From contig JASKKI010000002.1 of assembly GCA_030154225.1 (NCBI GenBank), positions 21-64,020 of the forward strand: 64,000 bases of DNA, written 5' to 3'. This stretch comes from Clostridia bacterium (lineage in GTDB: Bacteria > Bacillota > Peptococcia > Peptococcales > BICA1-8). The stretch's first letter is position 1, and each line of letters opens with the position of its first letter. Made by a program: the position numbers and the translations under genes. The notes beneath the pieces were generated by a model that worked only from the letters and a program-made list of their open reading frames with translations, was not told the DNA's origin and made no database searches. Below, in pieces: positions 2,295 to 60,177 of the stretch.

Positions 2295-2436
2295 ATTAAG
2301 TCCTCTTTCAAATGTTATATAATAGAAATATTTACTTTTCATATATTATATTATAATTTTATAGATTATCACAAATTTTTTTGAGTAAATAATTAATAAG
2401 AACTATCCATAACCCATAACTTTCTACATAAATAAC

Positions 2437-2462
2437 AAACTCGGTGCTAAGACACCGAGTTT
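2437..2462. terminator. Hairpin terminator downstream of the uracil permease gene
   Basis: AAACTCGGTG-CTAAGA-CACCGAGTTT, a 10-bp stem 8 nt past the stop codon at 2470. Confidence 0.5.
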
Positions 2463-2469
2463 AAATAAC

Positions 2470-3777
2470 TTATTTAGATTTTTCCAGAGCTAACTTCATA
2501 CTAGTAGATTTTTTCTCCTTTTCGGCAGCTTCTTCACTTTCCATACCAATAAAACGAGGTACTATAATATTAATTACTGCATTTAGTGTCACGCCAACTA
2601 TAGCAGCTAAACTTAGCCCTGATAAGCTGGCATGTTTAGTTAGAGTAATAACTGCAGGGTTTGCGTCCCCTTTAATAGAAACTATACCAATTATTAAAAT
2701 TGAAAATACCACAATGCTATTGCGTAAATCTGATAAGTCAGGTTTATTTTCAACCAGAGTACGAACACCAATACTAGCAATCATACCAAACAAGACAAAG
2801 CTTACTCCACCCATAACTGCCACTGGAATAGTTTGTATTAAAGCCCCGAACTTACCAATAAAACTTAATAGAATTGCAATTACAGCTGCTCCTCGCAAAA
2901 TGGTCGGATTATAATTTTTAGTTACCGCCAATACTCCCGTATTCTCACCATAGGTTGTATTAGCAGGGGCTCCGATTAAACCTGCAAAAGCAGTAGCTAA
3001 TCCGTCACCCATAAGTGTACGGTGGAGGCCAGGTGATTTAAAAAAGTCCTTTCCAACAACCGCTCCATTTGTTGTAATATCTCCAATATGTTCAATCATT
3101 GTAACAAGGGCAATAGGTACAATCACTTTCATTGCATCCAGAGAAAATTTGGGAAGGATCATCATTTGGGTAAAATCTCTAAAACTATAAATTATTGGAG
3201 CCTTAACTACAGGAGTAAAATCAACAATTCCCATAATTATTGATGCGATATAGCCTATAGCAATTCCTATAATTATCGGAATCATACGTATAAAACCCTT
3301 AGCTAGTATGCCTGTTAAAGCTATAGCAATGATAGTAATAATAGCAATAGTCCAATTGGCAGATGCCATGTCAACTGCAACAGGGGCTAAAATAAGTCCA
3401 ATTACAATGATAATAGGTCCGGTAACAATTGATGGAAATATTTTTTTAACTATGTCTGCACCTATAAAATATACTATGACAGACATTAATAAGTAAACTG
3501 CTCCCACAGCGATGAAAGAACCGGTCGCATAAGAAAGTCCAAAATTTTCTTTAACCGCCAAGATTCCAGCAATAAAGGCAAAGGATGAACCTAAAAACAC
3601 AGGAACTTTACCACCGGTTATAAAGTGAAATAATAGTGTTCCTACCCCTGCCCCTAACAAAGCAATGGAAGGATTTAATCCGGTAATAAATGGTACTAAT
3701 ACTGTAGCGCCAAACATAGCTAAGACATGTTGGAAAGATAAAATACCTGCGGACAAAAAGTTTTGCTGCTTTTGCAT
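2470..3777 (-). CDS. pyrP: Uracil permease (NCS2 uracil/xanthine permease family)
   Basis: 435-aa polytopic membrane protein typical of NCS2 permeases. It sits behind a PyrR-type attenuator. Confidence 0.8.
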   Translation of the reverse strand: MQKQQNFLSAGILSFQHVLAMFGATVLVPFITGLNPSIALLGAGVGTLLFHFITGGKVPVFLGSSFAFIAGILAVKENFGLSYATGSFIAVGAVYLLMSVIVYFIGADIVKKIFPSIVTGPIIIVIGLILAPVAVDMASANWTIAIITIIAIALTGILAKGFIRMIPIIIGIAIGYIASIIMGIVDFTPVVKAPIIYSFRDFTQMMILPKFSLDAMKVIVPIALVTMIEHIGDITTNGAVVGKDFFKSPGLHRTLMGDGLATAFAGLIGAPANTTYGENTGVLAVTKNYNPTILRGAAVIAILLSFIGKFGALIQTIPVAVMGGVSFVLFGMIASIGVRTLVENKPDLSDLRNSIVVFSILIIGIVSIKGDANPAVITLTKHASLSGLSLAAIVGVTLNAVINIIVPRFIGMESEEAAEKEKKSTSMKLALEKSK

Positions 3778-3803
3778 TAAAATCTCCTCCTCTTTTTGAC
3801 CAC

Positions 3804-3925
3804 ATAAAAAACCTCCTTACCGTGAGTAATAGCACAATAAGGAGGTATTATTATTTTTTTAAATACCTACCCTCAGCGCCTTACTGGCCTCACGGGACCA
3901 ATTTAAAGGTAGAAGGCTTTTTATG
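3804..3925 (-). promoter_or_regulatory. PyrR-type transcription attenuator (binding loop, antiterminator, terminator)
   Basis: The minus-strand leader TTTAAATTGGTCCCGTGAGGCCAGTAAGG resembles the PyrR binding loop (..GUCCAGAGAGGCU..AAGG). It is followed by ACCTCCTTA-N18-TAAGGAGGT plus T6. The competing pairing GGTAGGTATT/AATACCTCC could act as an antiterminator. Confidence 0.55.
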
Positions 3926-3942
3926 TGTTTTTTATCATATGA

Positions 3943-3971
3943 ATTATAACTTCTAATTAACAAAAAGTCAA
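3943..3971 (-). promoter_or_regulatory. Sigma-A type promoter of the pyrP leader
   Basis: The minus strand reads TTGACT, 17 nt, TATAAT. Confidence 0.6.
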
Positions 3972-4218
3972 TATAAAACGGGCTATACGTTTCCGTCGAC
4001 ATTCAGGCCGTTTTCTTATGAGCCTTAGATATTTCTGATATAATATTTAAACAAACGAAATGACATACTTCTTGAATAAAGAATACATCTGTAACACAAC
4101 CTGAACTGGTATTTAAGTATGTGGAATGTTTATTTCTTACCCAATTGCCGATTTCTCTGGGGTTAATAACAGCATGGGGATATTCTAAGTGGCTACCTTA
4201 TGCTTTTTACTTAAAGTT

Positions 4219-5397
4219 TTACTGCAGTAAACTTTTAATTGATTGCACAAGTTTTAGACTGGCTGTGTTAATGTTTTCCAGAGTTTTAGTTATAGTATTC
4301 ATAGCTTCTTTCTCTTCTAAAGCAGATACAGCGATTTTATTAATACTTTCTCTATTTGCCAAAAGTTCATCGGTCAATACCTGTAAGGAAGGTCCGATAT
4401 TTCCTACAACATTATATATTTCTTCCATTAGTGTTCGAATCGTATCAACAGATTTTCGGCTTTCTTCTGCTAACTTTCGAACTTCTTGAGCAACTACCGC
4501 GAAACCCCGCCCCTGTTCTCCTGCCCGGGCAGCCTCTATAGCGGCATTTAAAGCTAATAAATTTGTTTGTCCGGAAATATGCTTGATAGTTTCAACAAAA
4601 GAATTAATCTTAGCAGTGGCTTCTCTAAGGGCATGGGAAGATGTTAAAATTTCATTAACCTTTTCCGCTTCAGCATCCATTTTAGTACTAATACTTATTA
4701 TAGTCCCGGAAGTAATTTCAATAGAAGCAGAAACTTGTTGGGTTATAGCTACAATACTACTTATTTCTTCATTTAAATTATTACATACATTAGAAACCTG
4801 ACGGGAAATTTTTCGATAATTATATAAAGTGATGTATTCCATTATTTCTTTTGTAGAATCAAAAGTAGGGACACGGTAGGCTGGAATTATTACAACATCC
4901 GCTCTTAAATAATTTTTATATTTACTTAGTTCCCCTTTATTACCGACGATAGTATTAGCTCCAGCTATATATTTAGCAGTCTTTAAAGCAGTAACAACTT
5001 CTTCCTTAGATATCTCCGCAAAAGGAATTATATTAAATTTTATATGGTCTATACCCTGCTCTAGGCAATATTCTTTAATCTTGTTACCTTGAGCAAAGTT
5101 ATTATTAAATATGATTACTTCTTCATGAGCAGGTATTCGAGCCATACGAACAAAAAACTTTGAATTTGGAACCAATTCCAGGCTTACTATTTTTTCCCGT
5201 GGAACTTTTTGTGCCGTTTGTTCTATTCTTGTAGGTAAGGCAATATATAAGTCCGCTTCTAATTGGGAAGAAAGTTTATCTATACTAATAGATTTCACAC
5301 TAATATTTTTAGCGAATACTTCATTTACTACTGTTAACAATTCGTCAGCTACCGTTTGACTGCTTCCCACCGTTATAGCTTTAATAACCTCCGACAT
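4219..5397 (-). CDS. Soluble methyl-accepting chemotaxis protein with an uncharacterised N-terminal domain
   Basis: C-terminal MA signalling domain ([37 protein letters not shown]). No hydrophobic segments. Start moved to ATG 5397 (AAGGAG 8 nt upstream). Confidence 0.8.
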
Positions 5398-10725: not shown

Positions 10726-10817
10726 TAAGAAAAACCGACTTCGTCGGTCTTTGGAGAACCTATAGTAGCTACAGTGCTACCGTGCTACAGAAATAAAAGA
10801 TTAAGATTGAGGTTCGG
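10726..10817. repeat. Intergenic repeat, CTACAG family, copy 1 (with its leading hairpin)
   Basis: AAAAACCGAC-TTC-GTCGGTCTTT, then CCTATAGTAGCTACAGTGCTACCGTGCTACAGAAATAAAAGATTAAGATTGAGG. Near-identical to 21062-21137. Confidence 0.8.
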
Positions 10818-10844
10818 ACCAAAAGTTATACTTTGCTTTAAAGT

Positions 10845-10878
10845 AAAAAAAGTGTGACCTATCCATCACACTTTTTTT
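10845..10878 (-). terminator. Bidirectional-looking terminator after dsrM
   Basis: A6-AGTGTGA-N8-TCACACT-T7, 30 nt past the stop at 10909. Confidence 0.7.
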
Positions 10879-10908
10879 ACTAGCCACTAAACAAATATAA
10901 CCCGTTTT

Positions 10909-11940
10909 TTATTCTTTTGTCGTAGCTGCTTCTTTTTCACCTTCGGTACCGTCTTTTTCCAGCGGTAAACCAACAGCCCGCATTTTATCTCTAAATTCAT
11001 CTTCGTATTCTTCATAGGTGTGAACTTTTACCGGATAATTCCAAGGATTAATATGCCTTACTGCACGGTTATTATTAGCCATATTTCTAGTAGGACTCAA
11101 GAAAATTCCTCCCATGTGCATTAGCTTACTAAATGGGAAATAGGAAATAAGCACACAAACCAGGAACAAATGGATATAAAAGAGTATACTAATTCCTTCG
11201 GGAACAGTGGGATTAAAAGTGAATAATCCCAAAGCCAGTTCCTTAACAGCAACAACATCAACCCTTGTAAAATATCTCATCAATATACCGGTAAGAGCTA
11301 TACCCATAATCACAAATAAGGGGAAATAATCAGCAGCTAAGGATACGTAACGAACTTGGGGAATAAACACCCTTCTTATAAATAGATAAGTTATAGCCAC
11401 TAAAAGCAATACACCGGTTAGGTAGACATTCTGTAAATCAACTAAGAAAAAACCATCCAGTTTTTCGATTAACCGTACAAAAGCAGGTACCGGCTCTAGA
11501 AAAAATCTAAAGTGTCTGATTACTACAATCAAAAAGGACCAGTGAAAAATTAAACCTCCTAACCACAGCCATTTTTCCCATTGATAAACCAGTCTCTGTC
11601 CATCTACTAACTGAGCTTTTGTGTTTTTAAATAATGACCTGAAAAACAATACTTCCAAAGCCATTCTTGCTACTACACCGGAAGTGGTAGACGGATTTTC
11701 TATTTTGTTTTGCTTAATCCAGGATAAAGATTTTTGCTGTCCACAGGTAGTAGGTATCCGGAAAGGAACCGGAGCCTTCCCCCATTTGACTACCCGGTAA
11801 ACAAAACCGATTATAAAGGTGGCCAAGGCTATATAGGGTATGATTACACCAAAGAGGTAACTTAATCCTAAAGCCTCTACTCCCAGGAAAACACCCAAAA
11901 TGAGCGCCGTAACCATGAGCAAAGAAAATTTGAGACCCAT
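10909..11940 (-). CDS. dsrM: DsrM-type membrane di-heme cytochrome b (NarI-like)
   Basis: NarI-like TM pattern. Motif VPFRIPTTCGQQKSL is as remembered from DsrM/HmeC proteins. Last gene of the cluster. Confidence 0.7.
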   Translation of the reverse strand: MGLKFSLLMVTALILGVFLGVEALGLSYLFGVIIPYIALATFIIGFVYRVVKWGKAPVPFRIPTTCGQQKSLSWIKQNKIENPSTTSGVVARMALEVLFFRSLFKNTKAQLVDGQRLVYQWEKWLWLGGLIFHWSFLIVVIRHFRFFLEPVPAFVRLIEKLDGFFLVDLQNVYLTGVLLLVAITYLFIRRVFIPQVRYVSLAADYFPLFVIMGIALTGILMRYFTRVDVVAVKELALGLFTFNPTVPEGISILFYIHLFLVCVLISYFPFSKLMHMGGIFLSPTRNMANNNRAVRHINPWNYPVKVHTYEEYEDEFRDKMRAVGLPLEKDGTEGEKEAATTKE

Positions 11941-11965
11941 TAACTATCCCTCATTTCGTGTTATT

Positions 11966-13171
11966 TTAAGAGTGTTCTAAAGTTTCTTGAGATTTAAAGT
12001 TTTTGCTAGTAACATCAGTTTCCCTTTTTACAGAAACGACAACCTTATAGAATAAACTAGCAATTAAAGTTCCAATTGCCCAGATACCGATAATAATCAA
12101 TATTTCCGGTAAACGAGGAGTATATTCTGTTATTCTACCAAATGGGGTAACAGCTAATCCCCCAATAACAAAGCTCAATCCTTTTTCAATCATCATGGAA
12201 AAAAACACCGCTGCACAAGCAATAATTAATGTTTTGTCATTTTCTCTAGTTTTCCGAGGTATTAATAATACTAGGGCCAGCACTGAAAGTATTACAAAAA
12301 CCCACATAAACGGAACAAAACCATTATGCCCGTGTACTCCCGCAAAAAGATACTGGAGAGCATGCATATGAGCAGGCACCTGACTAAAAAATGCTGTAAA
12401 AAATTCAACTACCACCATAAAAATAGTAATAGACATGGAATAGGTAACAATTAACGCTAACTTTTGAATTGCTTTTTTGCCGGCATCGAAATTAGCAAAT
12501 TTTTTCAGTATAAAACAAATTAATATCAATAGGGCCGGACCGGTGGCAAAAGCCGAAGCTAAAAACTTGGGAGCAATTAAAGCTGTTAACCAGTAATGCC
12601 TGCCAGGAAGCCCTGCATATAAGAAGGCGGTGACAGTATGAATACTAACAGCCCAGGGAATAGATATATATATTAACACTTTTACCCATTTGGGCGGATG
12701 AACCCCTTTACTTTCAGCTTCTAAAACATTCCAGCCAATAAAGATATTTAGAAGAAGATAACCCGTTAAAACCATCGCATCCCAGAACATAGGCGAATTA
12801 GGTGTGGGATAAAGAAACATATTCACAACACGCATAGGCATACCCATATCGACAATGATAAACATCATACACATCAGTACAGAAGCAACAGCTAAGAATT
12901 CACCAATGACAGTAATCCGACCAAATTCCTTTACATTATGCAGGTAGTATGGTAAGACCAGCATTACAGCCGATGCAGCTACCCCAACAAAAAATGTAAA
13001 TTGACCTATATATAAACCCCAGGATACATCCCTGCTCATTCCTGTAACAGTTAATCCTTGATTAAGCTGCCAGAGATAGGAGCCAAAACCTACTGCCGAT
13101 AGGACTAACAGGAATAAAATCCAGTTCCAAAATTTTTTGTTATTCTCTTTAATTAAAGCCTTTTCCAGCAT
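11966..13171 (-). CDS. dsrP: DsrP-type NrfD/PsrC-family integral membrane quinone-interacting subunit
   Basis: 401 aa, about 10 TM segments, NrfD-like, adjacent to the DsrO-like FeS protein. Confidence 0.7.
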   Translation of the reverse strand: MLEKALIKENNKKFWNWILFLLVLSAVGFGSYLWQLNQGLTVTGMSRDVSWGLYIGQFTFFVGVAASAVMLVLPYYLHNVKEFGRITVIGEFLAVASVLMCMMFIIVDMGMPMRVVNMFLYPTPNSPMFWDAMVLTGYLLLNIFIGWNVLEAESKGVHPPKWVKVLIYISIPWAVSIHTVTAFLYAGLPGRHYWLTALIAPKFLASAFATGPALLILICFILKKFANFDAGKKAIQKLALIVTYSMSITIFMVVVEFFTAFFSQVPAHMHALQYLFAGVHGHNGFVPFMWVFVILSVLALVLLIPRKTRENDKTLIIACAAVFFSMMIEKGLSFVIGGLAVTPFGRITEYTPRLPEILIIIGIWAIGTLIASLFYKVVVSVKRETDVTSKNFKSQETLEHS

Positions 13172-13188
13172 AGTCTTCTCCCCCTCCT

Positions 13189-13956
13189 TTAAACTATATA
13201 AAATACTTTAGGTTTTGTACCAAAACTGTAACTCCGTTGAATAGTGTATTGAGAATCAAGGATCTTTCTTACTTCAGAGTTAGGATCATCTAAATCTCCA
13301 AAGACCAATCCACCGTTTTTGCTGGCTTCCACACAGGCAGGAAGTAAACCTTCAGCCAGTCTTTCCGAACAAAAATTACACTTTTCAACAACACCTTTGG
13401 TTCTGGTAGGATATTTAGGATTTATCTCTTTAAGATAGGGACGGGGATCTTTAAAATTAAAGCTTCGCGCACCATAGGGACAGGCTGCCATACAGTAACG
13501 ACATCCAATACACCGGTGAAAATCCATCATAACAATACCATCATTACTTTTAAAAGTAGCTTTAGTTGGACAAACCCTCACACAGGCCGGGTTTTCACAG
13601 TGATTACATAATGCTAAAAAGTTTTTATGCCGTATTTTACCGGTCAGATGTCCATGTTCAATATCATGAAATAAACTTTCAAAAGAATCAGTCCAAATCC
13701 ATTTGACCTCTTCTTTTTTATTACCAATATCAGGTACATTGTGTGTTTTATGACAGGCACTAATACACTCATCCAGTTCACTTTCCAGCTTATTCATGTC
13801 CACTACCATTGCCCAATTTTTTGCTTTCAAAGCTTTAGGATTTGGAGCATATTTTACCTTTTTGTTACTTGCCAGCGCATTACCTAAAGGAAGTAAACCT
13901 AATCCTAAAGTAAAAACTCCACTAACCTTCAAAAACTTTCTTCTATTAATATCCAT
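13189..13956 (-). CDS. dsrO: DsrO-type Tat-exported 4Fe-4S ferredoxin-like subunit
   Basis: Twin-arginine signal (MDINRRKFLKVSG..ALA) and several CxxCxxCxxxCP clusters. Confidence 0.7.
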   Translation of the reverse strand: MDINRRKFLKVSGVFTLGLGLLPLGNALASNKKVKYAPNPKALKAKNWAMVVDMNKLESELDECISACHKTHNVPDIGNKKEEVKWIWTDSFESLFHDIEHGHLTGKIRHKNFLALCNHCENPACVRVCPTKATFKSNDGIVMMDFHRCIGCRYCMAACPYGARSFNFKDPRPYLKEINPKYPTRTKGVVEKCNFCSERLAEGLLPACVEASKNGGLVFGDLDDPNSEVRKILDSQYTIQRSYSFGTKPKVFYIV

Positions 13957-14360
13957 TACTTAACCTCCTCTGGCCCAACATGACAACTCCAACAGTTGGG
14001 TTCTACCTGAGCATAGGTATGACAAGCATCACAAAATTCTTCCTTATTAGAGTGACAATCCAAGCAGGTATTTTCTAGACTCATTTCATACTCTTTCCCG
14101 TCTTTTTCCGATACATAAATTCTATTTCCATCACGAACCACAGATACTTTCCATTCACTTAGTAATTTCATGTGGTTGCTTCTCATAAAATCAGTATCTT
14201 CGATACATTCTTTAGCTTCTAATTCATTAATTTTAGGAGTATCAAGACTTAACTTTGGTGCATCATTTTTTTTACCAATTCCAAATACGAAAGGTAAAGT
14301 AAAGATGCCGATGAAAATAACGAGACCTATGATTATATTTCGGGAATTATACATCCTCAT
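13956..14360 (-). CDS. dsrJ: DsrJ-type membrane-anchored triheme cytochrome c
   Basis: N-terminal signal anchor and three CxxCH motifs (CLDCH, CDACH, CWSCH). Conserved ECIE..FMRSNHMKLL region resembles DsrJ. Confidence 0.75.
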   Translation of the reverse strand: MRMYNSRNIIIGLVIFIGIFTLPFVFGIGKKNDAPKLSLDTPKINELEAKECIEDTDFMRSNHMKLLSEWKVSVVRDGNRIYVSEKDGKEYEMSLENTCLDCHSNKEEFCDACHTYAQVEPNCWSCHVGPEEVK

Positions 14361-15960
14361 CTTCCTCCGTTCTTATGGGTTCAAAGCGTAAGTTTTCTTC
14401 CCTTTTCTTTTCCCCTTTCATAACTAGTGCATTACCCACTAACTCATGAACACCACAAACATCAACATTAGGTACCCAGTAGTGCATAAGGGGTGGTAAA
14501 ACTGCCCTATCTATAGCACAAATACAGGAAAGCATATTTACACCATGTTTTTCATGGACATATCTCACTGCATTTGCCCTAGGGAAACCCCCGCGCATGC
14601 GCATTTCCATATTTTCATCAGCACCAAGTCCTGCACCACCACCACAACAGAAAGTTTTTTCTCTGATTGTTTCTTCCGGCATCTCATAAAAATTGTTACA
14701 AACCTTTTGCAGGATATATCTTGGTTCTTCCAGTAACCCCATAGCCCTTGATGGGTTACAGGAATCATGGAAAGTAACTTTATAATTATCATTACGACTG
14801 GGGTCAAGTTTTATTTTATCATTTTTAATTAAATCCGCTGTAAATTCAGTAATATGAATCATCTTGGTAGATTTAGCATGGTCAAATCTTGTACCAGTAA
14901 TAGGGGAAACTGGTACTTCCAAAAAGTCAGCAGGGCCATTCATAGTATCCATGTACTGGTTAATAACTCTCCACATGTGACCACATTCTCCACCAAGTAT
15001 CCATTTAACCCCTAACCTTTTGGCTTCAGCATACATTTTGGCATTGAGCCTTTTCATCATTTCATGGGACGTGAATAATCCGAAGTTTCCACCCTCACTG
15101 GCGTAAGTACTTAATGTATAATCCAGGCCGATCTCATGTAATAGCATTAATTGTCCCATTAAGCTAAAAGTACCTGGGTTAGCAAACACGTCTCCAGACG
15201 GAGGAATATATAATACTTCTGCGCCTTTCCGGTTAAACGAAAGTTCAATTTGTACACCTGTAATATCGGCTATGTCATCGGTCAGCATTTCAAAAGAATC
15301 TACCAGCCCGTGGGGTTGAATTCCTAGGTGATTTCCCTTCATATAACAATTAGCAACAGGTGTAACTATCCAGTCAATATTTAAACCTACCAGATTTAAA
15401 AGCTCCCTGGCAATCATAGTTATTTCTGCAGTGTCAATTCCGTAAGGACAGAATACTGAACAACGGCGACATTCAGTACATTGAAAGAAATAATAAAACC
15501 ATTCTTTCAGTACATCTACGGTTAAATCCCGTGCACCGGCAATTTTGCCAAAAATCTTACCGGCAGTAGTAAAATCCTTTCTGTAAACCGATCTTAATAG
15601 TTCCGCCCGTAATACAGGCATATTTTTGGGGTCACCCGAACCTAAAAAGAAATGACATTTGTCAGCACAAGCACCACATCTAACACAAGTATCCATAAAA
15701 AGCTGCAGGGAACGGAATTTACCCAATCTTTCCCTTAATCCTTCCAGAATAATTTCTTTCCAATTTTCCGGTAATTTCCAATCTTCATCTTCCGGTGACC
15801 ACTGTCTAGGATTTGGCAAACCAACTGTCTGCAAACTTTCAGGTTTTCCAGGATAAAGCCAGGTTCCCGGCCTAAAGTCAACAGGCGTTTCGGTCCACCC
15901 TGTTTTAGGTGGCCTAAAATCAATATTTAATAGTTGGTCTGGTTTAGGTAGCTTCGCCAT
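14347..15960 (-). CDS. dsrK: DsrK-type (HdrD-like) cytoplasmic FeS / CCG-domain subunit
   Basis: CVRCGACADKC and CTECRRCSVFCPYG clusters plus C-terminal cysteine-rich CCG-like motifs (FCCGGGAG, SCICAI). Confidence 0.7.
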   Translation of the reverse strand: MAKLPKPDQLLNIDFRPPKTGWTETPVDFRPGTWLYPGKPESLQTVGLPNPRQWSPEDEDWKLPENWKEIILEGLRERLGKFRSLQLFMDTCVRCGACADKCHFFLGSGDPKNMPVLRAELLRSVYRKDFTTAGKIFGKIAGARDLTVDVLKEWFYYFFQCTECRRCSVFCPYGIDTAEITMIARELLNLVGLNIDWIVTPVANCYMKGNHLGIQPHGLVDSFEMLTDDIADITGVQIELSFNRKGAEVLYIPPSGDVFANPGTFSLMGQLMLLHEIGLDYTLSTYASEGGNFGLFTSHEMMKRLNAKMYAEAKRLGVKWILGGECGHMWRVINQYMDTMNGPADFLEVPVSPITGTRFDHAKSTKMIHITEFTADLIKNDKIKLDPSRNDNYKVTFHDSCNPSRAMGLLEEPRYILQKVCNNFYEMPEETIREKTFCCGGGAGLGADENMEMRMRGGFPRANAVRYVHEKHGVNMLSCICAIDRAVLPPLMHYWVPNVDVCGVHELVGNALVMKGEKKREENLRFEPIRTEEDEDV

Positions 15961-16028
15961 TTAAACACCCCTCAATCTAAAAAAATAAAAGTAAAATTAT
16001 AGCATGTGTTACAGTGTGTAATGAGCTA

Positions 16029-16538
16029 CTACTTATTTACACGCTCGAGCAGTTCACACTTTGTTTTAATTTCATGGATCCTCAGTTTATAGATGGTTTC
16101 CCGGCAATCTATATAAATACTAAAAGCTAGAAGTGCTAAATCATCAATTCTATTTTCCAATTGTAACAATTCCATAAATGGTATTTTATCATTTTTAAAG
16201 TCTTTTATTAAACTTTCTCTAACCACTTTCTTTAATGAAAAAATAAAAGAAATGGCTTGCGAGGGTGAGAGATTTTGAACGGCTTTAATCCGTAAAATCT
16301 TATCCAGAGCTTGGTATAACCTATCATTATCCATGTCCTCGATAAGTTCTCCATAGATAGTCTCTAACCCCTGGTAATAATTACTGCCTACAGGGTTTGA
16401 AAACTGGTTTTTTTGATTTTGTAAATGACGTCTCGCTTCTTTAGGGTAAACTTCCAGTAAAAGATGGAACCAGCTGGTTAAAATTGAACTCTTCTTTTGT
16501 ATCAAATATTCTTTAAGGTTGAAAATATTGTGCTCCAT
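16029..16538 (-). CDS. RsbRD_N-like domain protein (function unknown)
   Basis: Helical 169-aa protein with a FSNPVG motif recalled from the RsbRD N-terminal domain family. Start moved to ATG 16538 (GGGGGTGA RBS). Confidence 0.45.
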   Translation of the reverse strand: MEHNIFNLKEYLIQKKSSILTSWFHLLLEVYPKEARRHLQNQKNQFSNPVGSNYYQGLETIYGELIEDMDNDRLYQALDKILRIKAVQNLSPSQAISFIFSLKKVVRESLIKDFKNDKIPFMELLQLENRIDDLALLAFSIYIDCRETIYKLRIHEIKTKCELLERVNK

Positions 16539-16612
16539 CCTTGTTTCACCCCCTCTCAATATCCCGATTTATTATCATTTCTTATAGTTAACACTCCCGG
16601 TAAAGGGGTATT

Positions 16613-17434
16613 TTATGCATAACTATGAATACCAGGAAGAAGATAACTTACTCCTAAGAAAGTAAAAATTACCGCTAGAAAACCTACTATAGAAAGCAGG
16701 GCAGCTTTTTTCCCTTTCCAGCCTCGCAAGCGGACGTGTAAATATGCTGAATAAATGAACCAGGTAATAAGTGCCCACGTTTCTTTAGGGTCCCAGCTCC
16801 AATAACGCCCCCAGGAATATTCAGCCCATACTGCCCCAGTCACAAGCATTATTGTTAAGGCAGGCATTCCAATAAAAATAACTTTATAAGAAAGGTCATC
16901 CATTTTTTCCAGGGTAGGAAATACCTCTATAAATTTATTTTCAGGTTTATGCTCCTGCAACCAGTCTTTTATTAAATACATGATGGATAAAGCAAATGAC
17001 ATGGCAAATGCCCCATAGGAAATTACAGCAGTCAAAACATGGACGATTAACCATTTACTTCTTAGGGCAGGCATAGCCGGTCTTATGGAAACATCCAGAT
17101 TTACTAAAAATAACAATAATAAGATAACAATGGGCAATACAAATAATGCTGAAGATGATAACTCATATTTAGATTCAACTAACAGAAAAATCAAGATAAT
17201 TGCCCACACAAAGAACAAACCAAATTCAAATAAGTTTCTTAAAGGTAACCCACCTATAAGTAAACCCCTGATCACAAGCAAAATGGTATTTAAAATAAAA
17301 GCCGAAATAATTAAAAATCTTGCATGGATCTTTAATGTGCCTTTGGTATAAGTAAAATTAATAAAATACACAACAAAAGCCAGTATATAAAACAGTAAAG
17401 TAATAAACAAAAGAGGTGTTTGAAAATTTTCCAT
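16613..17434 (-). CDS. ccsA: Cytochrome c biogenesis protein CcsA/ResC (system II heme handling)
   Basis: WWD-type motif WGRYWSWDPKETWALITW, 8 TM segments. Confidence 0.85.
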   Translation of the reverse strand: MENFQTPLLFITLLFYILAFVVYFINFTYTKGTLKIHARFLIISAFILNTILLVIRGLLIGGLPLRNLFEFGLFFVWAIILIFLLVESKYELSSSALFVLPIVILLLLFLVNLDVSIRPAMPALRSKWLIVHVLTAVISYGAFAMSFALSIMYLIKDWLQEHKPENKFIEVFPTLEKMDDLSYKVIFIGMPALTIMLVTGAVWAEYSWGRYWSWDPKETWALITWFIYSAYLHVRLRGWKGKKAALLSIVGFLAVIFTFLGVSYLLPGIHSYA

Positions 17435-18574
17435 TTATTCCACCTCCAGTTTTTTGGTTATATCTTCAATAATTCCATCTTTAACAGCTTTGTTTTTACA
17501 ACTAACTGTAAAGTAAAATTTATTTTCGACATCATTAAAAGAAATTAAAACTTCCTTATATCTACCCGTCCAAAAAAACATAGAAGCCATACTCATTAAT
17601 AAGAAACCAGACATGACTATTTTAGTACCCGGGTCTTTTTTCACTCCTAAAACGGTAAAGGGATGGATATCTAGGTATTGCAAGTAAGTATCACTGGAAA
17701 AGGCTATTTTATCTCCTTTTTTTAAGATCTGGGTTTTAACCACATCGTGTCCTCTAAAAAATCTAACCAGTGCTCCTGCCCTAGTATAACTAATATTAAA
17801 AAATTGATCTTCTAGTTTAAATATTTTACCATCAGGTACCCGGTATATTCCCTCTTGTTCTCCGGCAATTTCTACTAAATGATTGTAACCATAAGATTTT
17901 TGGTAAAATACCACACCTTTATACTTAAAAGGATTATTAACCCGGGTTGTCCCGGTCCTTGCTTTATTTCCATTTACATACAAGTTAAAATCAGTGACCC
18001 AGTTCTCGATAGCTCCTTGGGTATCGTAAAGTGTTTGAAAATCATTAACTTCAATTACCATATTTGAAGCAACATTAGGGGGAACATCAGCTCGTTCACC
18101 AACAAAAACTTTTACTTTACCTTCCGAACTAAAGGAACTAATAAATCCCCCCAAAAGTACAATAATTAAGGCCAGATGGAGTAGGTGGGGTGCAACTAAA
18201 TTTAGAAAGCCTTTTTGAGCCAGTATATTTAACTGGCCATTACTAGATCTTTCTTTGATCTTGTATCTTTTAGTTTTAAAATAATGAAGCAAAGACTTTT
18301 TATAGTGGGATAAATTATCGATATTTTCTATAATTCTTACTGAAGAACTTTCTTTACTTAAACCACCAGGTTCTTTTCTAATTTTTGTAAATAAACTCGG
18401 CAGGCTTCTTAGGGTACAAACAAATAAATTCATGCAAAAAAGTAATAATAAGAGTCTGAACCAAAAAGAACCAAAAACATTTAGAGCAGGATATAAAGTA
18501 GCAAATATGGATGCCAAAACCAAAGTGGTAATTAAAATAACTGCTAGTTTAATAGAAGATAAAAAGTTTAGCAT
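17435..18574 (-). CDS. resB: Cytochrome c biogenesis protein ResB/Ccs1
   Basis: N-terminal TM pair, a large extracytoplasmic domain and a C-terminal TM. Abuts ccsA. Confidence 0.75.
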   Translation of the reverse strand: MLNFLSSIKLAVILITTLVLASIFATLYPALNVFGSFWFRLLLLLFCMNLFVCTLRSLPSLFTKIRKEPGGLSKESSSVRIIENIDNLSHYKKSLLHYFKTKRYKIKERSSNGQLNILAQKGFLNLVAPHLLHLALIIVLLGGFISSFSSEGKVKVFVGERADVPPNVASNMVIEVNDFQTLYDTQGAIENWVTDFNLYVNGNKARTGTTRVNNPFKYKGVVFYQKSYGYNHLVEIAGEQEGIYRVPDGKIFKLEDQFFNISYTRAGALVRFFRGHDVVKTQILKKGDKIAFSSDTYLQYLDIHPFTVLGVKKDPGTKIVMSGFLLMSMASMFFWTGRYKEVLISFNDVENKFYFTVSCKNKAVKDGIIEDITKKLEVE

Positions 18575-20100: not shown

Positions 20101-20766
20101 TTAGTTTGCTAACCTTTCTTTTAATTTACCATTGGCCAATTCTTCAGACAAGATATTTTTAGGACAATTACTTATACATTCCCCACATCTAATGCATCTA
20201 GGATCAGTAACCCGTCCCTCTATGTTAAATCTAGCTGTATTCAACTGCATAGGGCATGATCTACTACACAAACCACAACTAACACATCCTTGGTCAAAAA
20301 TAATACCTCCTTCGGTAGTACTTAACGATGTTGCCAGAGTACCCATAGGGCAAAAGGCTACACACCATGTTCGCGGGCGCCAGAAAATTCCTACTATGGT
20401 AGCAATAATAGTTGTCATAAACACCATTGAGGCAATTACTAATCCAATTTTATTCCAATTTCCCCAGGCATTTATCACTTGAAACACAAAAAAACTCATA
20501 AGTAAACCAAATATGGTCCAGCGAAATGCGGTATTTAGCAGCAATGGGGGAATATCCTTATTTCTACTAAATTTTATTACCAGCTTATCTAAAAAGCTTC
20601 CTCTAGGGCAAAAGCTTCCACACCATTTTCTACCCGCGAAAGGAGCTATAAAAATAGGAGCAAACATGCAAATTAAAGCCAGGTAACCTAATTTGTTAAC
20701 AAATATTAAACTCATAAACATATAGGTTAAAAGAACGATCCAAAGATAATTTTTTAATTTATTCAT
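20101..20766 (-). CDS. Membrane-bound 4Fe-4S binding protein (NapH/YccM-like)
   Basis: Four TM segments with CxxC pairs (CGSFCP, CVAFCP) and a C-terminal 2x[4Fe-4S] ferredoxin motif (CVSCGLCSRSCP, CIRCGECISNCP). Confidence 0.7.
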   Translation of the reverse strand: MNKLKNYLWIVLLTYMFMSLIFVNKLGYLALICMFAPIFIAPFAGRKWCGSFCPRGSFLDKLVIKFSRNKDIPPLLLNTAFRWTIFGLLMSFFVFQVINAWGNWNKIGLVIASMVFMTTIIATIVGIFWRPRTWCVAFCPMGTLATSLSTTEGGIIFDQGCVSCGLCSRSCPMQLNTARFNIEGRVTDPRCIRCGECISNCPKNILSEELANGKLKERLAN

Positions 20767-21459: not shown

Positions 21460-22194
21460 CTATCCTGATAAATATTTTTTTAGTTCACCTAAGGCCATCC
21501 TCTCTAATCTGGAAACTTGCATCTGGGAAACACCTAAAATTTGTGCTACTTTACTTTGAGTAAGATCCTCATAAAAGCGCAAATAAATGACTTTACGCTT
21601 TATTTCCTCTAGTCTACCTAAAGCATTAGCTACATCCTGTTTGGACTCTATTGATTGCAAATTTATATCTTCCTTGCCCATAAAATGAATAAGTTCCGTT
21701 TTATTATCTTCCTTTTCCAATTGTTCTGAAAGGGAAGTTGCCCTTGCTGCTCTTTTAGCTTCTAAAACCTTCTCTACTACTTCTTCTTCCAAACCTAAAG
21801 TTGAAGCAATTTCTTTTACACCTGGTGCTTCCCCCGTTTTTTGATATAGCTCACTTTCCGTTTTAGTAATATTGGTGCTTAATTCTCTATATTTTCTAGG
21901 AATACTCACCCTCCAAGTGTTATCACGATAATAATTTAGTATTTTACCAGTAACAGTTTTATAGGCAAAGGTTTTAAAGCGAATTTCTTTATCAGGGTCA
22001 AATCTCTCTAGAGCTCCTACCACAGCAATACGGGCGACCTGTAATAAATCTTCCTTTTCCCAGGGTAAATAGCATTGAGTTTGACACCAGTATTTAATGT
22101 GAGGTTCCATCAAGTTTAGGATTTCATTCAAGATATCTTCCGATTTATTCTTTTTATATTCAACTACTAAATCTTCTATGTCAACGCGTTTCAT
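21460..22194 (-). CDS. Group 3 sigma-70 family factor (SigB/SigF-like)
   Basis: Region 2 (FKTFAYKTVTGKILNYYRDN) and region 4 HTH (LTQSKVAQILGVSQMQVSRLERMAL). Start moved to ATG 22194 (AAGGAAGG RBS). Confidence 0.8.
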   Translation of the reverse strand: MKRVDIEDLVVEYKKNKSEDILNEILNLMEPHIKYWCQTQCYLPWEKEDLLQVARIAVVGALERFDPDKEIRFKTFAYKTVTGKILNYYRDNTWRVSIPRKYRELSTNITKTESELYQKTGEAPGVKEIASTLGLEEEVVEKVLEAKRAARATSLSEQLEKEDNKTELIHFMGKEDINLQSIESKQDVANALGRLEEIKRKVIYLRFYEDLTQSKVAQILGVSQMQVSRLERMALGELKKYLSG

Positions 22195-22262
22195 GTATAT
22201 TCCTTCCTTTAATTTTTTAGGTTTTTGGATAATTTCTATATCAAAACAACAAATTCCTTCCT

Positions 22263-22655
22263 TCACCACTTTTTCAAACAATAGACTTCATTTCCTTGGT
22301 CATTAAACCAAACTTTATCTAATACACTAAACATTAGGAATAAACCTTTGCCTTTTTCATCCAAAATATTCTCTACATTAAAACGTCCTGCTTGACTATA
22401 ATCAAAACCTGGGCCATTGTCCTTTATTTTTATTTGGATCTTATCACTAGTAATCCACCATTGAATCTCAACCAACGGCTTTTTTAATCCCTTGGAACCA
22501 TGAATAAATGCGTTATTTACTGCCTCCGTAATAGCAAGCTGAATGTCAAAAAATGTTTCCTGGGGAACATTATAAGATTGTAGTTCACTACGAAGTGTTT
22601 TAATAACATTTTCAATTTGTAATAAGTCAGTAAGCTTCAAAATAGTATTCATCAT
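22263..22655 (-). CDS. Anti-sigma factor serine kinase (RsbW/SpoIIAB-like HATPase)
   Basis: 130 aa with motifs EAVNNAFIHG and DNGPGFD..GKGLFLM; immediately upstream of the sigma gene. Confidence 0.75.
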   Translation of the reverse strand: MMNTILKLTDLLQIENVIKTLRSELQSYNVPQETFFDIQLAITEAVNNAFIHGSKGLKKPLVEIQWWITSDKIQIKIKDNGPGFDYSQAGRFNVENILDEKGKGLFLMFSVLDKVWFNDQGNEVYCLKKW

Positions 22656-22732
22656 TAGGGTTTCCTCCGACTTTATCGTTAAAGCTTCTTAATAAGTAAT
22701 TACCTGATAATAAACTATTATAAACAAATTCA

Positions 22733-22831
22733 AAAAAACTGAGCTGTGCCCAGTTTTTTAGGTTACACTTCGCTAGGTTAAGAGCAAATTTCACAATTTA
22801 CGTTATCTAAACCTCAACCTTAACCTCAAAC
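22733..22831. repeat. Intergenic repeat, CGCTAGGTTAAG family, copy 2, plus a CCTCAACCTTAACCTCAAAC tail
   Basis: AAAAAAACTGAGCTGTGCCCAGTTTTTT hairpin (also the likely cbiX terminator), then AGGTTACACTTCGCTAGGTTAAGAGCAAATTTCAC. The tail is the reverse complement of the GATTAAGGTTGAGG motif found in CTACAG copies. Confidence 0.65.
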
Positions 22832-22842
22832 TAAATTAAATA

Positions 22843-23217
22843 TTACATCAATTCCTCCGCTTCTTTAATTCTGTCTTCAGCGATTTCTACAATACGATAA
22901 TCAGGTCCTAAATGTTTGGCAAAAACAAATTTAACATCAGGATAAGTGGTTTTCAGTCTTAATAGCTTTCCGGGAATGTCCCGGTGCATATGATTACCAA
23001 CTGTTAAAAACATGGGCATAATTATTACTTTATGCACATTTTCCTCCAATAAACTTTCTATGGCCTCAACCAGTGAAGGGTTACCAAACTCCAAAAAAGC
23101 TACTTGATATTTTCCCTGGGGATTTTTTGCTTGTAATTTTCTGGTGATTTCTCTTATCTCATCATTAGCATCTTCTCTCCGACTACCATGACCTAAGATA
23201 ATAATACCTTCTTTCAT
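22843..23217 (-). CDS. cbiX: Sirohydrochlorin cobaltochelatase, short form
   Basis: 124 aa; ILGHGSRREDAN and MPMFLTVGNHMHRDIP are typical of CbiX(S). Confidence 0.75.
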   Translation of the reverse strand: MKEGIIILGHGSRREDANDEIREITRKLQAKNPQGKYQVAFLEFGNPSLVEAIESLLEENVHKVIIMPMFLTVGNHMHRDIPGKLLRLKTTYPDVKFVFAKHLGPDYRIVEIAEDRIKEAEELM

Positions 23218-45006: not shown

Positions 45007-45172
45007 CTCTTATCCAGAGAGGTGGAGGGACTGGCCCTGTGAAACCCGGCAACTGGCCTAGTTATTAGGTGCTGTGCCAATTCCTGCAGGCTTAATTAGT
45101 CTGACAGATAAGAGTGGTCGTACCATGGTTAGTATGCCCTCTTTTATTCTGTTGGATAAAAGAGGGTTTTTT
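45007..45172 (+). promoter_or_regulatory. SAM-I (S-box) riboswitch with terminator
   Basis: CTCTTATCCAGAGAGGTGGAGGGACTGGCCCTGTGAAACCCGGCAAC..GGTGCTGTGCCAATTCCTGCAGG..GACAGATAAGAG (45007-45114), then CCCTCTTTTA-N10-TAAAAGAGGG plus T6 (45137-45172). Confidence 0.9.
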
Positions 45173-58173: not shown

Positions 58174-58176
58174 CTC

Positions 58177-58647: not shown

Positions 58648-58658
58648 TTGTTTCCCTC

Positions 58659-60161: not shown

Positions 60162-60177
60162 ATGTCAACATCCCTTT

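What the first reader, a model, noticed from the sequence alone, without database searches (positions are those of the whole stretch)
10909..18574. Complete dsrMKJOP-type complex in the order K-J-O-P-M, coupled to resB-ccsA and an RsbRD_N-like gene, in a low-GC Firmicute-like context
The co-directional run is resB, ccsA, a 169-aa RsbRD_N-like protein, then five complex subunits:
- an HdrD-like FeS/CCG protein (DsrK-like)
- a membrane-anchored triheme cytochrome c (DsrJ-like; CLDCH, CDACH, CWSCH)
- a Tat-signal FeS protein (DsrO-like)
- an NrfD-like protein (DsrP-like)
- a NarI-like cytochrome b (DsrM-like; PTTCGQQKSL)

The canonical order is M-K-J-O-P. As far as I recall from comparative analyses of sulfate reducers (Pereira et al. 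2011), Gram-positive sulfate/sulfite reducers usually keep only dsrMK and lack the extracytoplasmic JOP module.

Here the full set sits next to the system II machinery needed to mature DsrJ. No dsrAB, dsrC or aprAB lies within the window. The electron acceptor served by this module, and the role of the RsbRD_N-like protein wedged between the maturation and structural genes, are both open.
Basis: partly seen in the sequence, partly recalled or inferred. Interest (0 to 1): 0.55.

Follow-up and report, generated by a model that had tools for sequence, protein, structure and literature searches.

The report
Permuted dsrT-dsrKJOPM operon with cytochrome maturation genes
This is a genuine, complete DsrMKJOP sulfite-respiration membrane complex with its usual partner gene dsrT and its own cytochrome c maturation genes, in an uncultured spore-forming Clostridia bacterium. 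The gene order, the partner gene and the maturation-gene linkage are shared with many related Bacillota, so it is an ordinary member of a known system.

Summary
Eight co-directional minus-strand genes fill 10909-18574: resB, ccsA, a 169-aa RsbRD_N protein, then dsrK, dsrJ, dsrO, dsrP and dsrM. All five complex subunits pass NCBIfam equivalog cut-offs for DsrK/J/O/P/M, and the Hmc, Tmc, Qrc, Ttr and Nrf models fall far below theirs. Haem, Fe-S, CCG, Tat and transmembrane features are all present.

The "RsbRD_N-like" gene is dsrT, the described companion that precedes dsrMKJOP in reductive dsr organisms. It is not an insertion.

The K-J-O-P-M order is not peculiar to this window:
- 20 of 80 species-level genomes carrying close DsrK homologues show it outright, and two truncated contigs are consistent with it.
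- All of them are Bacillota, including Moorella/Neomoorella, Peptococcus simiae and gut Peptococcaceae.
- 12 of them (13 counting a contig cut inside ccsA) also have resB-ccsA directly upstream.

No dsrAB, dsrC or dsrD lies in the window or within about 10 kb beyond either end, so I could not verify the acceptor pathway in this genome. Cultured Peptococcus relatives reduce sulfite and taurine to H2S.

The most likely function is menaquinol:DsrC-trisulfide oxidoreductase, with ResB/CcsA maturing DsrJ. I rate it a new member of a known kind, of low interest. The permuted order and the ccs linkage appear undiscussed in the literature I could search.

The parts
17435..18574 (-). resB (Ccs1/CcsB-type system II cytochrome c biogenesis protein), 379 aa
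   Evidence: Pfam PF05140 ResB scores 125.7 bits against a cut-off of 24.6, covering profile positions 52-274 of 486. A hydropathy scan gives 4 hydrophobic segments. Homologues lie directly upstream of ccsA-dsrT in 12 related Bacillota loci.
16613..17434 (-). ccsA/resC (haem-handling WWD protein of system II; NCBIfam calls it CcsB), 273 aa
   Evidence: TIGR03144 scores 254.4 bits against a cut-off of 187.6. PF01578 gives 1.4e-51. The WWD motif WGRYWSWD starts at residue 208 and there are 7 hydrophobic segments. The start codon directly abuts the resB stop.
16029..16538 (-). dsrT, 169 aa: a soluble, stand-alone RsbRD_N (non-haem globin-like) domain followed by a 48-residue C-terminal helix
   Evidence: PF14361 scores 58.7 bits against a cut-off of 24.3. 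Homologues (31-55% identity) lie immediately upstream of the dsr complex genes in most of 80 loci. The AF2 model has pLDDT 91.7 and is all-helical. Foldseek top hits are globins, pXO1-118/pXO2-61 and the stressosome RsbR N-domain 3zta, all weak (E 0.09-0.3, TM 0.44-0.51). The family has no conserved His or Cys. The literature identifies this gene as dsrT (PMC6018805, PMC8477390).
14347..15960 (-). dsrK, 537 aa: cytoplasmic HdrD-like Fe-S/CCG catalytic subunit
   Evidence: NF045796 DsrK scores 746 bits against a cut-off of 400, whereas TmcB scores 159 vs 735 and HmcF 135 vs 750. The two CX2CX2CX3C motifs (C92-C102, C161-C171) and CCG-domain cysteines C401, C438-C439 and C481 are 100% conserved in 81 sequences. 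No transmembrane segment. A sibling MAG protein in the same 90% cluster is named DsrK by NCBI.
13956..14360 (-). dsrJ, 132-134 aa: membrane-anchored trihaem cytochrome c
   Evidence: NF038038 scores 174 bits against a cut-off of 100. The three CXXCH motifs, Cys52, His63 and Met59/Met64 are at least 97% conserved across 81 sequences. One N-terminal hydrophobic anchor spans residues 9-27. It is the only multi-CXXCH ORF in the 64 kb.
13189..13956 (-). dsrO, 255 aa: Tat-exported Fe-S subunit
   Evidence: NF045797 scores 323 bits against a cut-off of 200, whereas QrcC scores 133 vs 400, TtrB 148 vs 416 and HmcB 89 vs 420. The N-terminus MDINRRKFLK carries a twin-arginine motif. The cluster cysteines are 100% conserved.
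11966..13171 (-). dsrP, 401 aa: NrfD-family integral membrane subunit
   Evidence: NF045798 scores 446 bits against a cut-off of 350, whereas QrcD scores 57 vs 570 and TtrC 34 vs 314. PF03916 NrfD matches. Ten hydrophobic segments.
10909..11940 (-). dsrM, 343 aa: NarI-like dihaem cytochrome b, placed last instead of first
   Evidence: NF038037 scores 565 bits against a cut-off of 300, whereas narI scores 34, TmcC 24, QmoC 24 and HmcE 18. His133, His143, His257 and His275 are 100% conserved in 73 sequences.
10842..10881 (-). Intrinsic-terminator-like hairpin 28 nt after the dsrM stop (A-tract, perfect stem, T-tract); the likely end of the operon
   Evidence: RNA fold gives -21.2 kcal/mol with z = -7.6 against 200 shuffles. 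The sequence was read. A second hairpin at 10752-10730 was found by the consensus scan.

Best explanation
The region is one operon of an uncultured, spore-forming, low-GC Clostridia bacterium. Its nearest relatives are labelled Peptococcales/Bacillota. The operon encodes (i) ResB and CcsA, the system II cytochrome c synthase; (ii) DsrT, the conserved non-haem globin-like accessory protein of reductive dsr systems; and (iii) a complete DsrMKJOP complex written in the Bacillota-typical order K-J-O-P-M.

Inferred mechanism, by equivalence with the characterised Archaeoglobus, Desulfovibrio and Allochromatium complexes:
- Menaquinol is oxidised at the dihaem cytochrome b DsrM.
- Electrons pass to the Fe-S clusters and the non-cubane CCG cluster of cytoplasmic DsrK.
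- DsrK reduces the DsrC-trisulfide made by DsrAB from sulfite, releasing sulfide and regenerating DsrC.
- DsrJ (anchored trihaem cytochrome c), DsrO (Tat-exported Fe-S protein) and DsrP (NrfD-type) form the second, outward-facing quinone-interacting module. Its role is still unresolved for the whole family.
- ResB/CcsA export haem and attach it to the three CXXCH sites of DsrJ on the outer face of the membrane. Placing them in the same operon gives a bacterium that may have few other c-type cytochromes a self-contained cassette.
- DsrT probably acts as a sensor or regulator, or as an assembly partner, of the complex.

What is shown: gene identities, motifs, operon layout, and conservation of the layout in relatives. 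What is inferred: the enzymatic activity, the substrate (sulfite, possibly derived from organosulfonates, via DsrAB/DsrC encoded elsewhere), that the Ccs genes are dedicated to DsrJ, and the role of DsrT.
For: - All five subunits exceed the NCBIfam equivalog cut-offs, and rival complex models score far below theirs.
- Cofactor-binding residues are conserved with 72-80 homologues.
- Topology features match the family: a Tat signal on DsrO, one anchor helix on DsrJ, 10 transmembrane segments in DsrP, and no transmembrane segment in DsrK or DsrT.
- The layout is tight and operon-like, with a strong terminator hairpin after dsrM.
- DsrJ is the only CXXCH-rich ORF in the window.
- The same resB-ccsA-dsrT-K-J-O-P-M layout occurs in 12-13 related loci, and T-K-J-O-P-M in 20 Bacillota species genomes (22 counting two truncated contigs). 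These include Peptococcus simiae and Moorella/Neomoorella, where dsrABD lies 5 kb away.
- A concatenated DsrK+O+P+M neighbour-joining tree places the window with two MAGs (100/100 bootstraps) and then with gut Peptococcaceae including P. simiae (100/100). This fits vertical inheritance within the lineage.
- The GC and GC3 of the genes match the rest of the window.
- Biochemistry of the family: menadiol:DsrC-trisulfide oxidoreductase (PMC10861901).
- P. niger carries dsrB, and both P. niger and P. simiae make H2S from sulfite or taurine (PMC12772247).
- DsrT identity and co-distribution with DsrABCD-DsrMKJOP are documented (PMC6018805, PMC8477390, PMC10504309).
Against: - No dsrAB, dsrC or dsrD lies in the window or within about 10 kb beyond either end. 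I could not establish their presence elsewhere in this genome (searches failed to find them).
- No resA or ccdA thiol-reduction gene is adjacent to resB.
- Whether the organism makes menaquinone, and whether it has other c-type cytochromes, is unknown.
- The order T-K-J-O-P-M breaks the T-M adjacency (and occasional T-M fusion) seen elsewhere, so any model needing co-translation of DsrT with DsrM does not apply here.
Confidence: 0.85

Rival explanations
1. The complex works without DsrAB/DsrC. On this view the organism lacks dissimilatory sulfite reductase and uses DsrKJOPM, through the His/Cys-type haem of DsrJ or through DsrK, on another sulfur compound (thiosulfate, polysulfide, or another protein persulfide/trisulfide), or as a general quinol:thiol oxidoreductase.
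For: No dsrAB, dsrC or dsrD lies within about 84 kb around the operon. None lies within +/-10 kb of the operon in any Peptococcales-type locus either. The function of the DsrJOP module is still called an enigma (PMC10861901).
Against: The subunits score as equivalogs of DsrMKJOP and retain every catalytic residue. DsrT and DsrMKJOP are reported to be co-distributed with DsrABCD (PMC10504309). In many known sulfate reducers dsrAB is also unlinked from dsrMKJOP (the interrupted operons noted in PMC6018805). Peptococcus, which has the same operon layout (L020), has dsrB and reduces sulfite (PMC12772247). Thiosulfate and sulfite were not substrates of the purified complex (PMC10861901).
Confidence: 0.08
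2. The cluster is a recently acquired or decaying horizontally transferred cassette that is not used by this host.
For: DsrK is 73-79% identical to proteins of Thermodesulfobacteriota such as Desulfacinum and Syntrophobacteraceae. dsr genes are known to move between Bacillota and that phylum. Three unrelated genes separate the operon from the sigma/anti-sigma pair that abuts it in gut relatives.
Against: All eight ORFs are intact, with conserved cofactor ligands. GC (0.32-0.40) and GC3 (0.25-0.34) match the host window. The operon and its upstream neighbours are syntenic with relatives at 92% and about 80% DsrK identity, and the concatenated tree follows the Peptococcales grouping with 100/100 support. 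Identical proteins recur in contigs from many samples.
Confidence: 0.04
3. The subunits belong to a different membrane redox complex family (Hmc, Tmc, Qrc, Ttr/Psr or Nrf) that only resembles Dsr.
For: The domain architectures (HdrD-like, NrfCD-like, NarI-like) are shared among these complexes.
Against: NCBIfam scores for those families are 3- to 30-fold below their cut-offs, while the Dsr models are passed with margins of 27-88% above cut-off. The nearest 80 genomic homologues are all dsrT/dsrMKJOP clusters, several next to dsrABD and dsrC.
Confidence: 0.01

Closest known systems
DsrMKJOP complex of Archaeoglobus fulgidus, Desulfovibrio and Allochromatium vinosum (menaquinol:DsrC-trisulfide oxidoreductase; PMC10861901)
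   Same: All five subunits are present at equivalog level. The cofactor motifs match: a dihaem b with four His ligands, two [4Fe-4S] clusters plus CCG, trihaem c with a conserved Cys, a Tat-exported Fe-S protein, and a 10-TM NrfD protein.
   Different: The gene order is K-J-O-P-M rather than M-K-J-O-P. The host is a monoderm spore-former, so DsrJ and DsrO face the cell wall side rather than a periplasm. System II maturation genes sit in the same operon. dsrAB and dsrC are not nearby.
dsrABD ... dsrT-dsrKJOPM locus of Moorella/Neomoorella (L008-L010, L013; DsrMKJOP and DsrT noted for M. thermoacetica in PMC10504309)
   Same: Both have the T-K-J-O-P-M order. DsrK is 78-79% identical. ccsA/resB lie next to the operon. 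The host is a Bacillota.
   Different: In Moorella ccsA/resB are divergently transcribed, and dsrA, dsrB, dsrD, a TPR protein and a DVU0298-family protein lie within 5 kb. In the window resB-ccsA are co-directional and no dsrAB is near.
resB-ccsA-dsrT-dsrKJOPM loci of Peptococcus simiae and uncultured gut Peptococcaceae (L007, L011-L020, L025-L027)
   Same: The eight-gene layout and orientation are identical. They form the sister clade in the concatenated tree (100/100). Some also share the upstream trio of CbiX, an RsbW-like kinase and a sigma factor.
   Different: Identity is 75-81% for DsrK but only 31-36% for ResB. The window has three extra genes between the sigma gene and resB. The habitats differ, with environmental metagenomes here against animal gut there.
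DsrT (dsrT) of sulfate/sulfite reducers and Chlorobi (PMC6018805)
   Same: It is a single RsbRD_N domain with similar length and a position at the head of the complex genes. The same structural neighbour (pXO1-118) comes up that the original authors obtained by threading.
   Different: Here it precedes dsrK rather than dsrM, so the T-M adjacency or fusion described for other lineages is absent.
Dedicated system II cytochrome c synthase genes placed beside their substrate cytochrome, such as nrfI in the nrfHAIJ operon of Wolinella (from my own knowledge, not checked here)
   Same: Ccs genes are co-located with the one cytochrome c they are expected to mature.
   Different: Here ResB and CcsA are separate proteins, not a CcsBA fusion. 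The DsrJ haem sites are ordinary CXXCH motifs, so no special substrate specificity is implied.

Membership tests
DsrMKJOP complex | Five subunits, each matching the family-specific (equivalog) model above its curated cut-off | tested here: met
   DsrK 746 vs 400, DsrJ 174 vs 100, DsrO 323 vs 200, DsrP 446 vs 350, DsrM 565 vs 300.
DsrMKJOP complex | DsrK has two CX2CX2CX3C [4Fe-4S] motifs plus the CCG-domain cysteines for the non-cubane catalytic cluster, and is a cytoplasmic protein | tested here: met
   C92/95/98/102, C161/164/167/171, C401, C438-C439 (CCG) and C481 are 100% conserved across 81 sequences. No transmembrane segment.
DsrMKJOP complex | DsrJ is a membrane-anchored trihaem cytochrome c with a conserved extra Cys (the proposed His/Cys haem ligand) | tested here: met
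   Three CXXCH motifs, plus Cys52 (99%), His63 (100%) and Met59/Met64 (at least 97%). One N-terminal anchor helix.
DsrMKJOP complex | DsrO is a Tat-exported Fe-S protein and DsrP is an NrfD-type protein with about 10 TM helices | tested here: met
   RRKFLK motif at residues 5-10, cluster cysteines invariant, and 10 hydrophobic segments in DsrP.
DsrMKJOP complex | DsrM is a NarI-like dihaem cytochrome b with four His ligands | tested here: met
   His133, His143, His257 and His275 are invariant in 73 sequences. PF02665 matches.
DsrMKJOP complex | Canonical gene order dsrT-M-K-J-O-P (typical of the family, not defining) | tested here: not met
   The order here is T-K-J-O-P-M. The same permutation is seen in 20 Bacillota species genomes, and two truncated contigs are consistent with it.
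DsrMKJOP complex | Co-occurrence in the genome with dsrAB and dsrC | not testable with these tools
   They are absent from the window and from about 10 kb beyond each end.
DsrMKJOP complex | Menaquinol:DsrC-trisulfide oxidoreductase activity | not testable with these tools
   This is a biochemical property, known for the A. fulgidus complex (PMC10861901).
DsrT | Stand-alone RsbRD_N domain protein encoded directly upstream of the dsr membrane-complex genes | tested here: met
   PF14361 scores 58.7 vs 24.3. The gene ends 68 nt upstream of dsrK. Homologues occupy the equivalent position in most of 80 loci. The definition is in PMC6018805.
DsrT | Globin-like (pXO1-118 / RsbR N-domain) fold without a haem ligand | tested here: inconclusive
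   The model is confident (pLDDT 91.7). The best PDB matches are globins, pXO1-118, pXO2-61 and 3zta, but only at E 0.09-0.3 and TM 0.44-0.51. There is no conserved His or Cys.
System II cytochrome c biogenesis (ResB/Ccs1 + ResC/CcsA) | CcsA-type protein with a WWD motif, and a ResB-type partner | tested here: met
   TIGR03144 scores 254 vs 187.6 and the WGRYWSWD motif is present. PF05140 scores 125.7 vs 24.6, though only profile positions 52-274 of 486 are covered.
System II cytochrome c biogenesis (ResB/Ccs1 + ResC/CcsA) | Associated thiol-reduction components (ResA/CcdA) | not tested
   None is adjacent to resB. The upstream neighbours are a 134-aa protein without domains, an Amidase_2 protein and a NapH-like protein. 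I did not search the whole window specifically.
Hmc / Tmc / Qrc / Ttr / Nrf complexes | Subunits reaching the family-specific model cut-offs | tested here: not met
   TmcB 159 vs 735, HmcF 135 vs 750, QrcC 133 vs 400, QrcD 57 vs 570, HmcB 89 vs 420, TtrB 148 vs 416, TtrC 34 vs 314, TmcC 24 vs 240, HmcE 18 vs 275, NrfH 17 vs 134.

The most novel reading that the evidence does not exclude
In the Peptococcales lineage the dsr membrane module may be part of a larger conserved cassette: CbiX-type chelatase, RsbW-like anti-sigma kinase, SigB/F/G-family sigma factor, resB, ccsA, dsrT, dsrKJOPM. On this reading DsrT, a stand-alone copy of the sensor domain of the stressosome protein RsbR, signals to this partner-switching sigma pair to switch on sulfite respiration. 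That would give the first concrete mechanism for DsrT, whose function is unknown in all dsr organisms. A weaker version is that K-J-O-P-M plus an in-operon Ccs system is the hallmark of an undescribed Bacillota-type DsrMKJOP cassette.
Probability: 0.1. Interest if true: 0.55.

Novelty: new member of a known kind. Interest (0 to 1): 0.22.

Why it matters
The finding adds one more uncultured, spore-forming Clostridia lineage to the list of Bacillota that carry the full DsrMKJOP complex rather than DsrMK alone.

Taken together with the related loci, it shows three things about Bacillota that have the full complex:
- They usually write it as T-K-J-O-P-M.
- In the Peptococcales they carry the system II cytochrome c synthase in the same operon.
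- They keep it unlinked from dsrAB.

That is useful for annotation pipelines that look for the M-K-J-O-P order or for T-M adjacency. It also bears on how monoderm bacteria mature and place DsrJ and DsrO. It does not change the understanding of dissimilatory sulfite reduction.

Tried and rejected
1. Locating dsrAB/dsrC of the source organism.
- tblastn with Moorella DsrA, DsrB and DsrD, plus a DsrC C-terminus regex, found nothing in the window.
- Extending past both window ends via exact-protein look-ups showed only housekeeping and sporulation genes. Two look-ups found no record.
- A DsrA homologue search returned 7742 hits. The top 120 were all 77-90% identical to the Moorella query, which left no way to tell the source organism's copy apart.
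- Amino-acid composition did not discriminate low-GC candidates.
- The two candidates with a matching source profile, P0131 and P0077, come from different samples than the window's contigs. P0077's contig also carries LolA and LptF/G genes, so it is Gram-negative.

2. PDB sequence searches for DsrK, DsrT and DsrJ found no solved homologue.

3. Consensus promoter scans were at background level (34 found against 31 expected), so I claim no promoter.

4. Monophyly of all K..M-order loci had 0/100 bootstrap support, because two M-K-order Bacillota loci (L018, L048) nest among them. I therefore make no claim of a single rearrangement event.

5. Pereira et al. 2011 could not be retrieved. The statement about Gram-positives rests on PMC10861901 instead.

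Full report
**What is there.** Between 10909 and 18574 the minus strand carries eight tightly packed genes: resB, ccsA, a 169-aa RsbRD_N-domain gene, and five genes for an HdrD-like Fe-S/CCG protein, a small trihaem cytochrome c, a Tat-signal Fe-S protein, an NrfD-type membrane protein and a NarI-type cytochrome b. Spacings are 0, 74, 68, -14, -1, 17 and 25 nt. A strong hairpin flanked by A- and T-tracts (-21.2 kcal/mol, z = -7.6) lies 28 nt after the last stop codon. A 310-nt non-coding stretch precedes resB.

**Identity of the complex.** Each of the five proteins passes the NCBIfam equivalog model for the corresponding DsrMKJOP subunit: K 746 vs 400, J 174 vs 100, O 323 vs 200, P 446 vs 350, M 565 vs 300. 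The models for TmcB, HmcF, QrcC, QrcD, HmcB, HmcE, TmcC, QmoC, TtrB, TtrC and NrfH score three- to thirty-fold below their cut-offs.

I aligned each subunit with homologues from 72-80 other genomes. The results:
- DsrK keeps both CX2CX2CX3C motifs and the CCG-domain cysteines.
- DsrJ keeps its three CXXCH motifs plus Cys52, His63 and Met59/Met64.
- DsrM keeps four invariant histidines.
- DsrO keeps its cluster cysteines.

Hydropathy and motif scans give one anchor helix in DsrJ, an RRKFLK Tat motif in DsrO, ten segments in DsrP, and none in DsrK. CcsA passes TIGR03144 (254 vs 187.6) and has the WGRYWSWD motif. ResB matches PF05140. DsrJ is the only ORF in the 64 kb with more than one CXXCH.

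**The RsbRD_N-like gene is dsrT.** Anantharaman et al. [quoted passage not shown] They report that it 'always precedes' dsrMKJOP, is sometimes fused to dsrM, and was modelled on pXO1-118. DiSCo (PMC8477390) and Neukirchen et al. (PMC10504309) treat it as a standard reductive-type dsr gene co-distributed with DsrABCD-DsrMKJOP.

In my synteny survey a homologue (31-55% identity) sits directly before the complex genes in nearly all loci. The exception is a Syntrophaceae/Smithella group, where a DsrK-like paralogue lies there instead. An AlphaFold model built on 37 homologues is confident (pLDDT 91.7). It is all-helical and ends in a 48-residue helix. Foldseek against the PDB returns globins, pXO1-118, pXO2-61 and the stressosome RsbR N-domain entry 3zta, but only weakly (E 0.09-0.3, TM 0.44-0.51). 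The family has no conserved His or Cys, which fits a non-haem globin-like sensor domain. Its role is an open question for the whole field. It is not something 'wedged in' at this locus.

**How unusual is the arrangement?** A scan of one genome per GTDB species with DsrK returned more than 600 matches, of which the best 80 were kept. Mapping the eight window proteins onto those loci gives the following picture:
- T-M-K-J-O-P occurs in all Thermodesulfobacteriota, Nitrospirota, Acidobacteriota and similar loci, and in three Bacillota (L018, L048, L084).
- T-K-J-O-P-M occurs in 20 loci, and two truncated contigs are consistent with it. All are Bacillota: the window's closest relatives L005 and L006 (DsrK 92% and 91%), gut Peptococcaceae MAGs, Peptococcus simiae (L020), Moorella/Neomoorella (L008-L010, L013, L029), and L031 and L036.
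- resB-ccsA lies co-directionally just upstream of dsrT in 12 of these (13 counting L035, a contig cut inside ccsA).
- In three Moorellaceae loci (L009, L010, L029) ccsA, with resB in L009 and L010, is divergent; in L009 and L010 dsrA, dsrB and dsrD lie about 5 kb upstream.

A neighbour-joining tree of concatenated DsrK+O+P+M (1490 columns, 100 bootstraps) groups the window with L005 and L006 (100), then with the gut Peptococcaceae and P. simiae (100), then with L036 (98). All K..M loci together are not monophyletic (0/100), because L018 and L048 nest near Moorella. The layout is therefore a lineage trait of Bacillota that possess the full complex. It is not a peculiarity of this window.

In the searchable literature I found no mention of the permuted order or of a dsr-ccs linkage. 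The presence of DsrMKJOP and DsrT in Moorella is reported (PMC10504309). The current statement is that DsrJOP is absent from 'many', not all, Bacillota (PMC10861901). NCBI's pipeline already names a protein in the same 90% cluster 'DsrMKJOP subunit DsrK'.

**Host and neighbourhood.** The identical proteins occur in GenBank MAGs labelled 'Clostridia bacterium' and in JGI and Logan contigs from several samples. GC is 0.31-0.43, and the operon's GC and GC3 match the surroundings.

Downstream lie trkH, an ArsR-type regulator gene, an amino-acid ABC transporter, ispE, purR, spoVG, glmU, prs, pth and mfd. Upstream lie a small domain-less membrane protein, an Amidase_2 protein, a NapH-like Fer4_5 membrane protein, a SigB/F/G-family sigma factor with an RsbW-like kinase, and cbiX, cbiH and cbiL. 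Further on are KDG-pathway, methionine-transport, metH/metF and split glutamate synthase genes. Beyond the window end lie glnA, spoIIR, sipL and yabG.

None of dsrA, dsrB, dsrC or dsrD occurs in this roughly 84-kb span. None occurs within +/-10 kb of the operon in any Peptococcales-type locus either.

**Function.** By family equivalence, the complex is a menaquinol:DsrC-trisulfide oxidoreductase. Electrons flow from quinol through the DsrM haems b to the DsrK non-cubane cluster and onto the DsrC-trisulfide, releasing sulfide (PMC10861901). The DsrJOP half is thought to add a second quinone-interacting, outward-facing module of unresolved role. ResB/CcsA would attach haem to DsrJ outside the membrane.

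The upstream electron-accepting chemistry (DsrAB plus DsrC acting on sulfite) must be encoded elsewhere, and I could not verify that for this genome. Cultured members of the sister clade support it indirectly. P. niger dsrB is used as a reference sequence, and both P. niger and P. simiae produce H2S from sulfite or taurine (PMC12772247). P. simiae has the same eight-gene operon (L020).

**Side observation.** In seven gut Peptococcaceae loci, a small CbiX, the RsbW-like kinase and the sigma factor directly abut resB. The window and L005 keep the same trio, but one to three extra genes are inserted before resB. DsrT is a copy of the sensor domain of a protein in the SigB partner-switching pathway, so a regulatory link is conceivable. 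But no STAS-domain gene is adjacent, P. simiae lacks the pair, and DsrT is conserved in many lineages without it. I therefore rate this as a low-probability lead.

**Verdict.** The supposed oddities are explained by known biology (dsrT) or are shared with many relatives (order, ccs linkage, full JOP set). This is a new member of a known kind, carrying a modest and apparently undiscussed comparative-genomic pattern. Interest 0.22.

Noticed in passing
window 21460-23217 (-); L011, L012, L014-L017, L019, L005: A small CbiX chelatase, an RsbW-like anti-sigma kinase and a SigB/F/G-family sigma factor form a trio. The kinase and sigma factor score below the SigB, SigF and RsbW cut-offs, and no STAS gene is adjacent. 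In seven gut Peptococcaceae loci the trio sits directly upstream of resB-ccsA-dsrT-dsrKJOPM. In the window, three genes separate it from resB. It is absent in Peptococcus simiae. A regulatory or cofactor link to the dsr operon is possible.
   Followed up: partly
window 15996-16004 (-), in the 68-nt dsrT-dsrK spacer: An extended -10-like element, TGCTATAAT, lies between dsrT and dsrK. It could be an internal promoter that lets dsrKJOPM be expressed separately from resB-ccsA-dsrT. This is a consensus match only.
   Followed up: no
window 20101-20766 (-): A NapH/MauN-family Fer4_5 membrane ferredoxin-like protein (221 aa) lies between the sigma gene and the dsr operon. No homologue was found in any related locus, including L005.
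   Followed up: partly
L041, L049, L051, L054, L067, L081 (Syntrophaceae/Smithella-type loci): These loci have no dsrT homologue upstream of dsrM. A DsrK-like paralogue (27-31% identity) occupies that position instead, and dsrC is nearby in L041, L049, L051, L054, L067 and L081.
   Followed up: no
L008 (Moorella naiadis) 1398-4242 and 15591-18474: One 21-kb stretch holds two dsrAB copies: a divergent copy (27% identity to the other) with dsrC just upstream, and the reductive-type dsrABD downstream of dsrT-KJOPM. This matches the two-copy situation reported for M. thermoacetica.
   Followed up: no
window 45007-45114 (+) and 29088-29204 (-): A SAM riboswitch lies ahead of metQ-metN-metI, and a TPP riboswitch ahead of an NMT1/ABC transporter operon. 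Both are above Rfam gathering scores.
   Followed up: no
window 56156-61323 (-): A five-gene split glutamate-synthase-like cluster: GATase_2, a Glu_synthase/Fer4 protein, a polyferredoxin, a Pyr_redox_2 flavoprotein and a GXGXG protein. metH, metF and, beyond the window end, glnA with an ANTAR regulator lie next to it.
   Followed up: no
window 10730-10752 and 10842-10881 (-): Two hairpins lie in the 261-nt dsrM-trkH spacer. The first is a perfect A-tract/stem/T-tract structure that could terminate transcription in both directions.
   Followed up: partly
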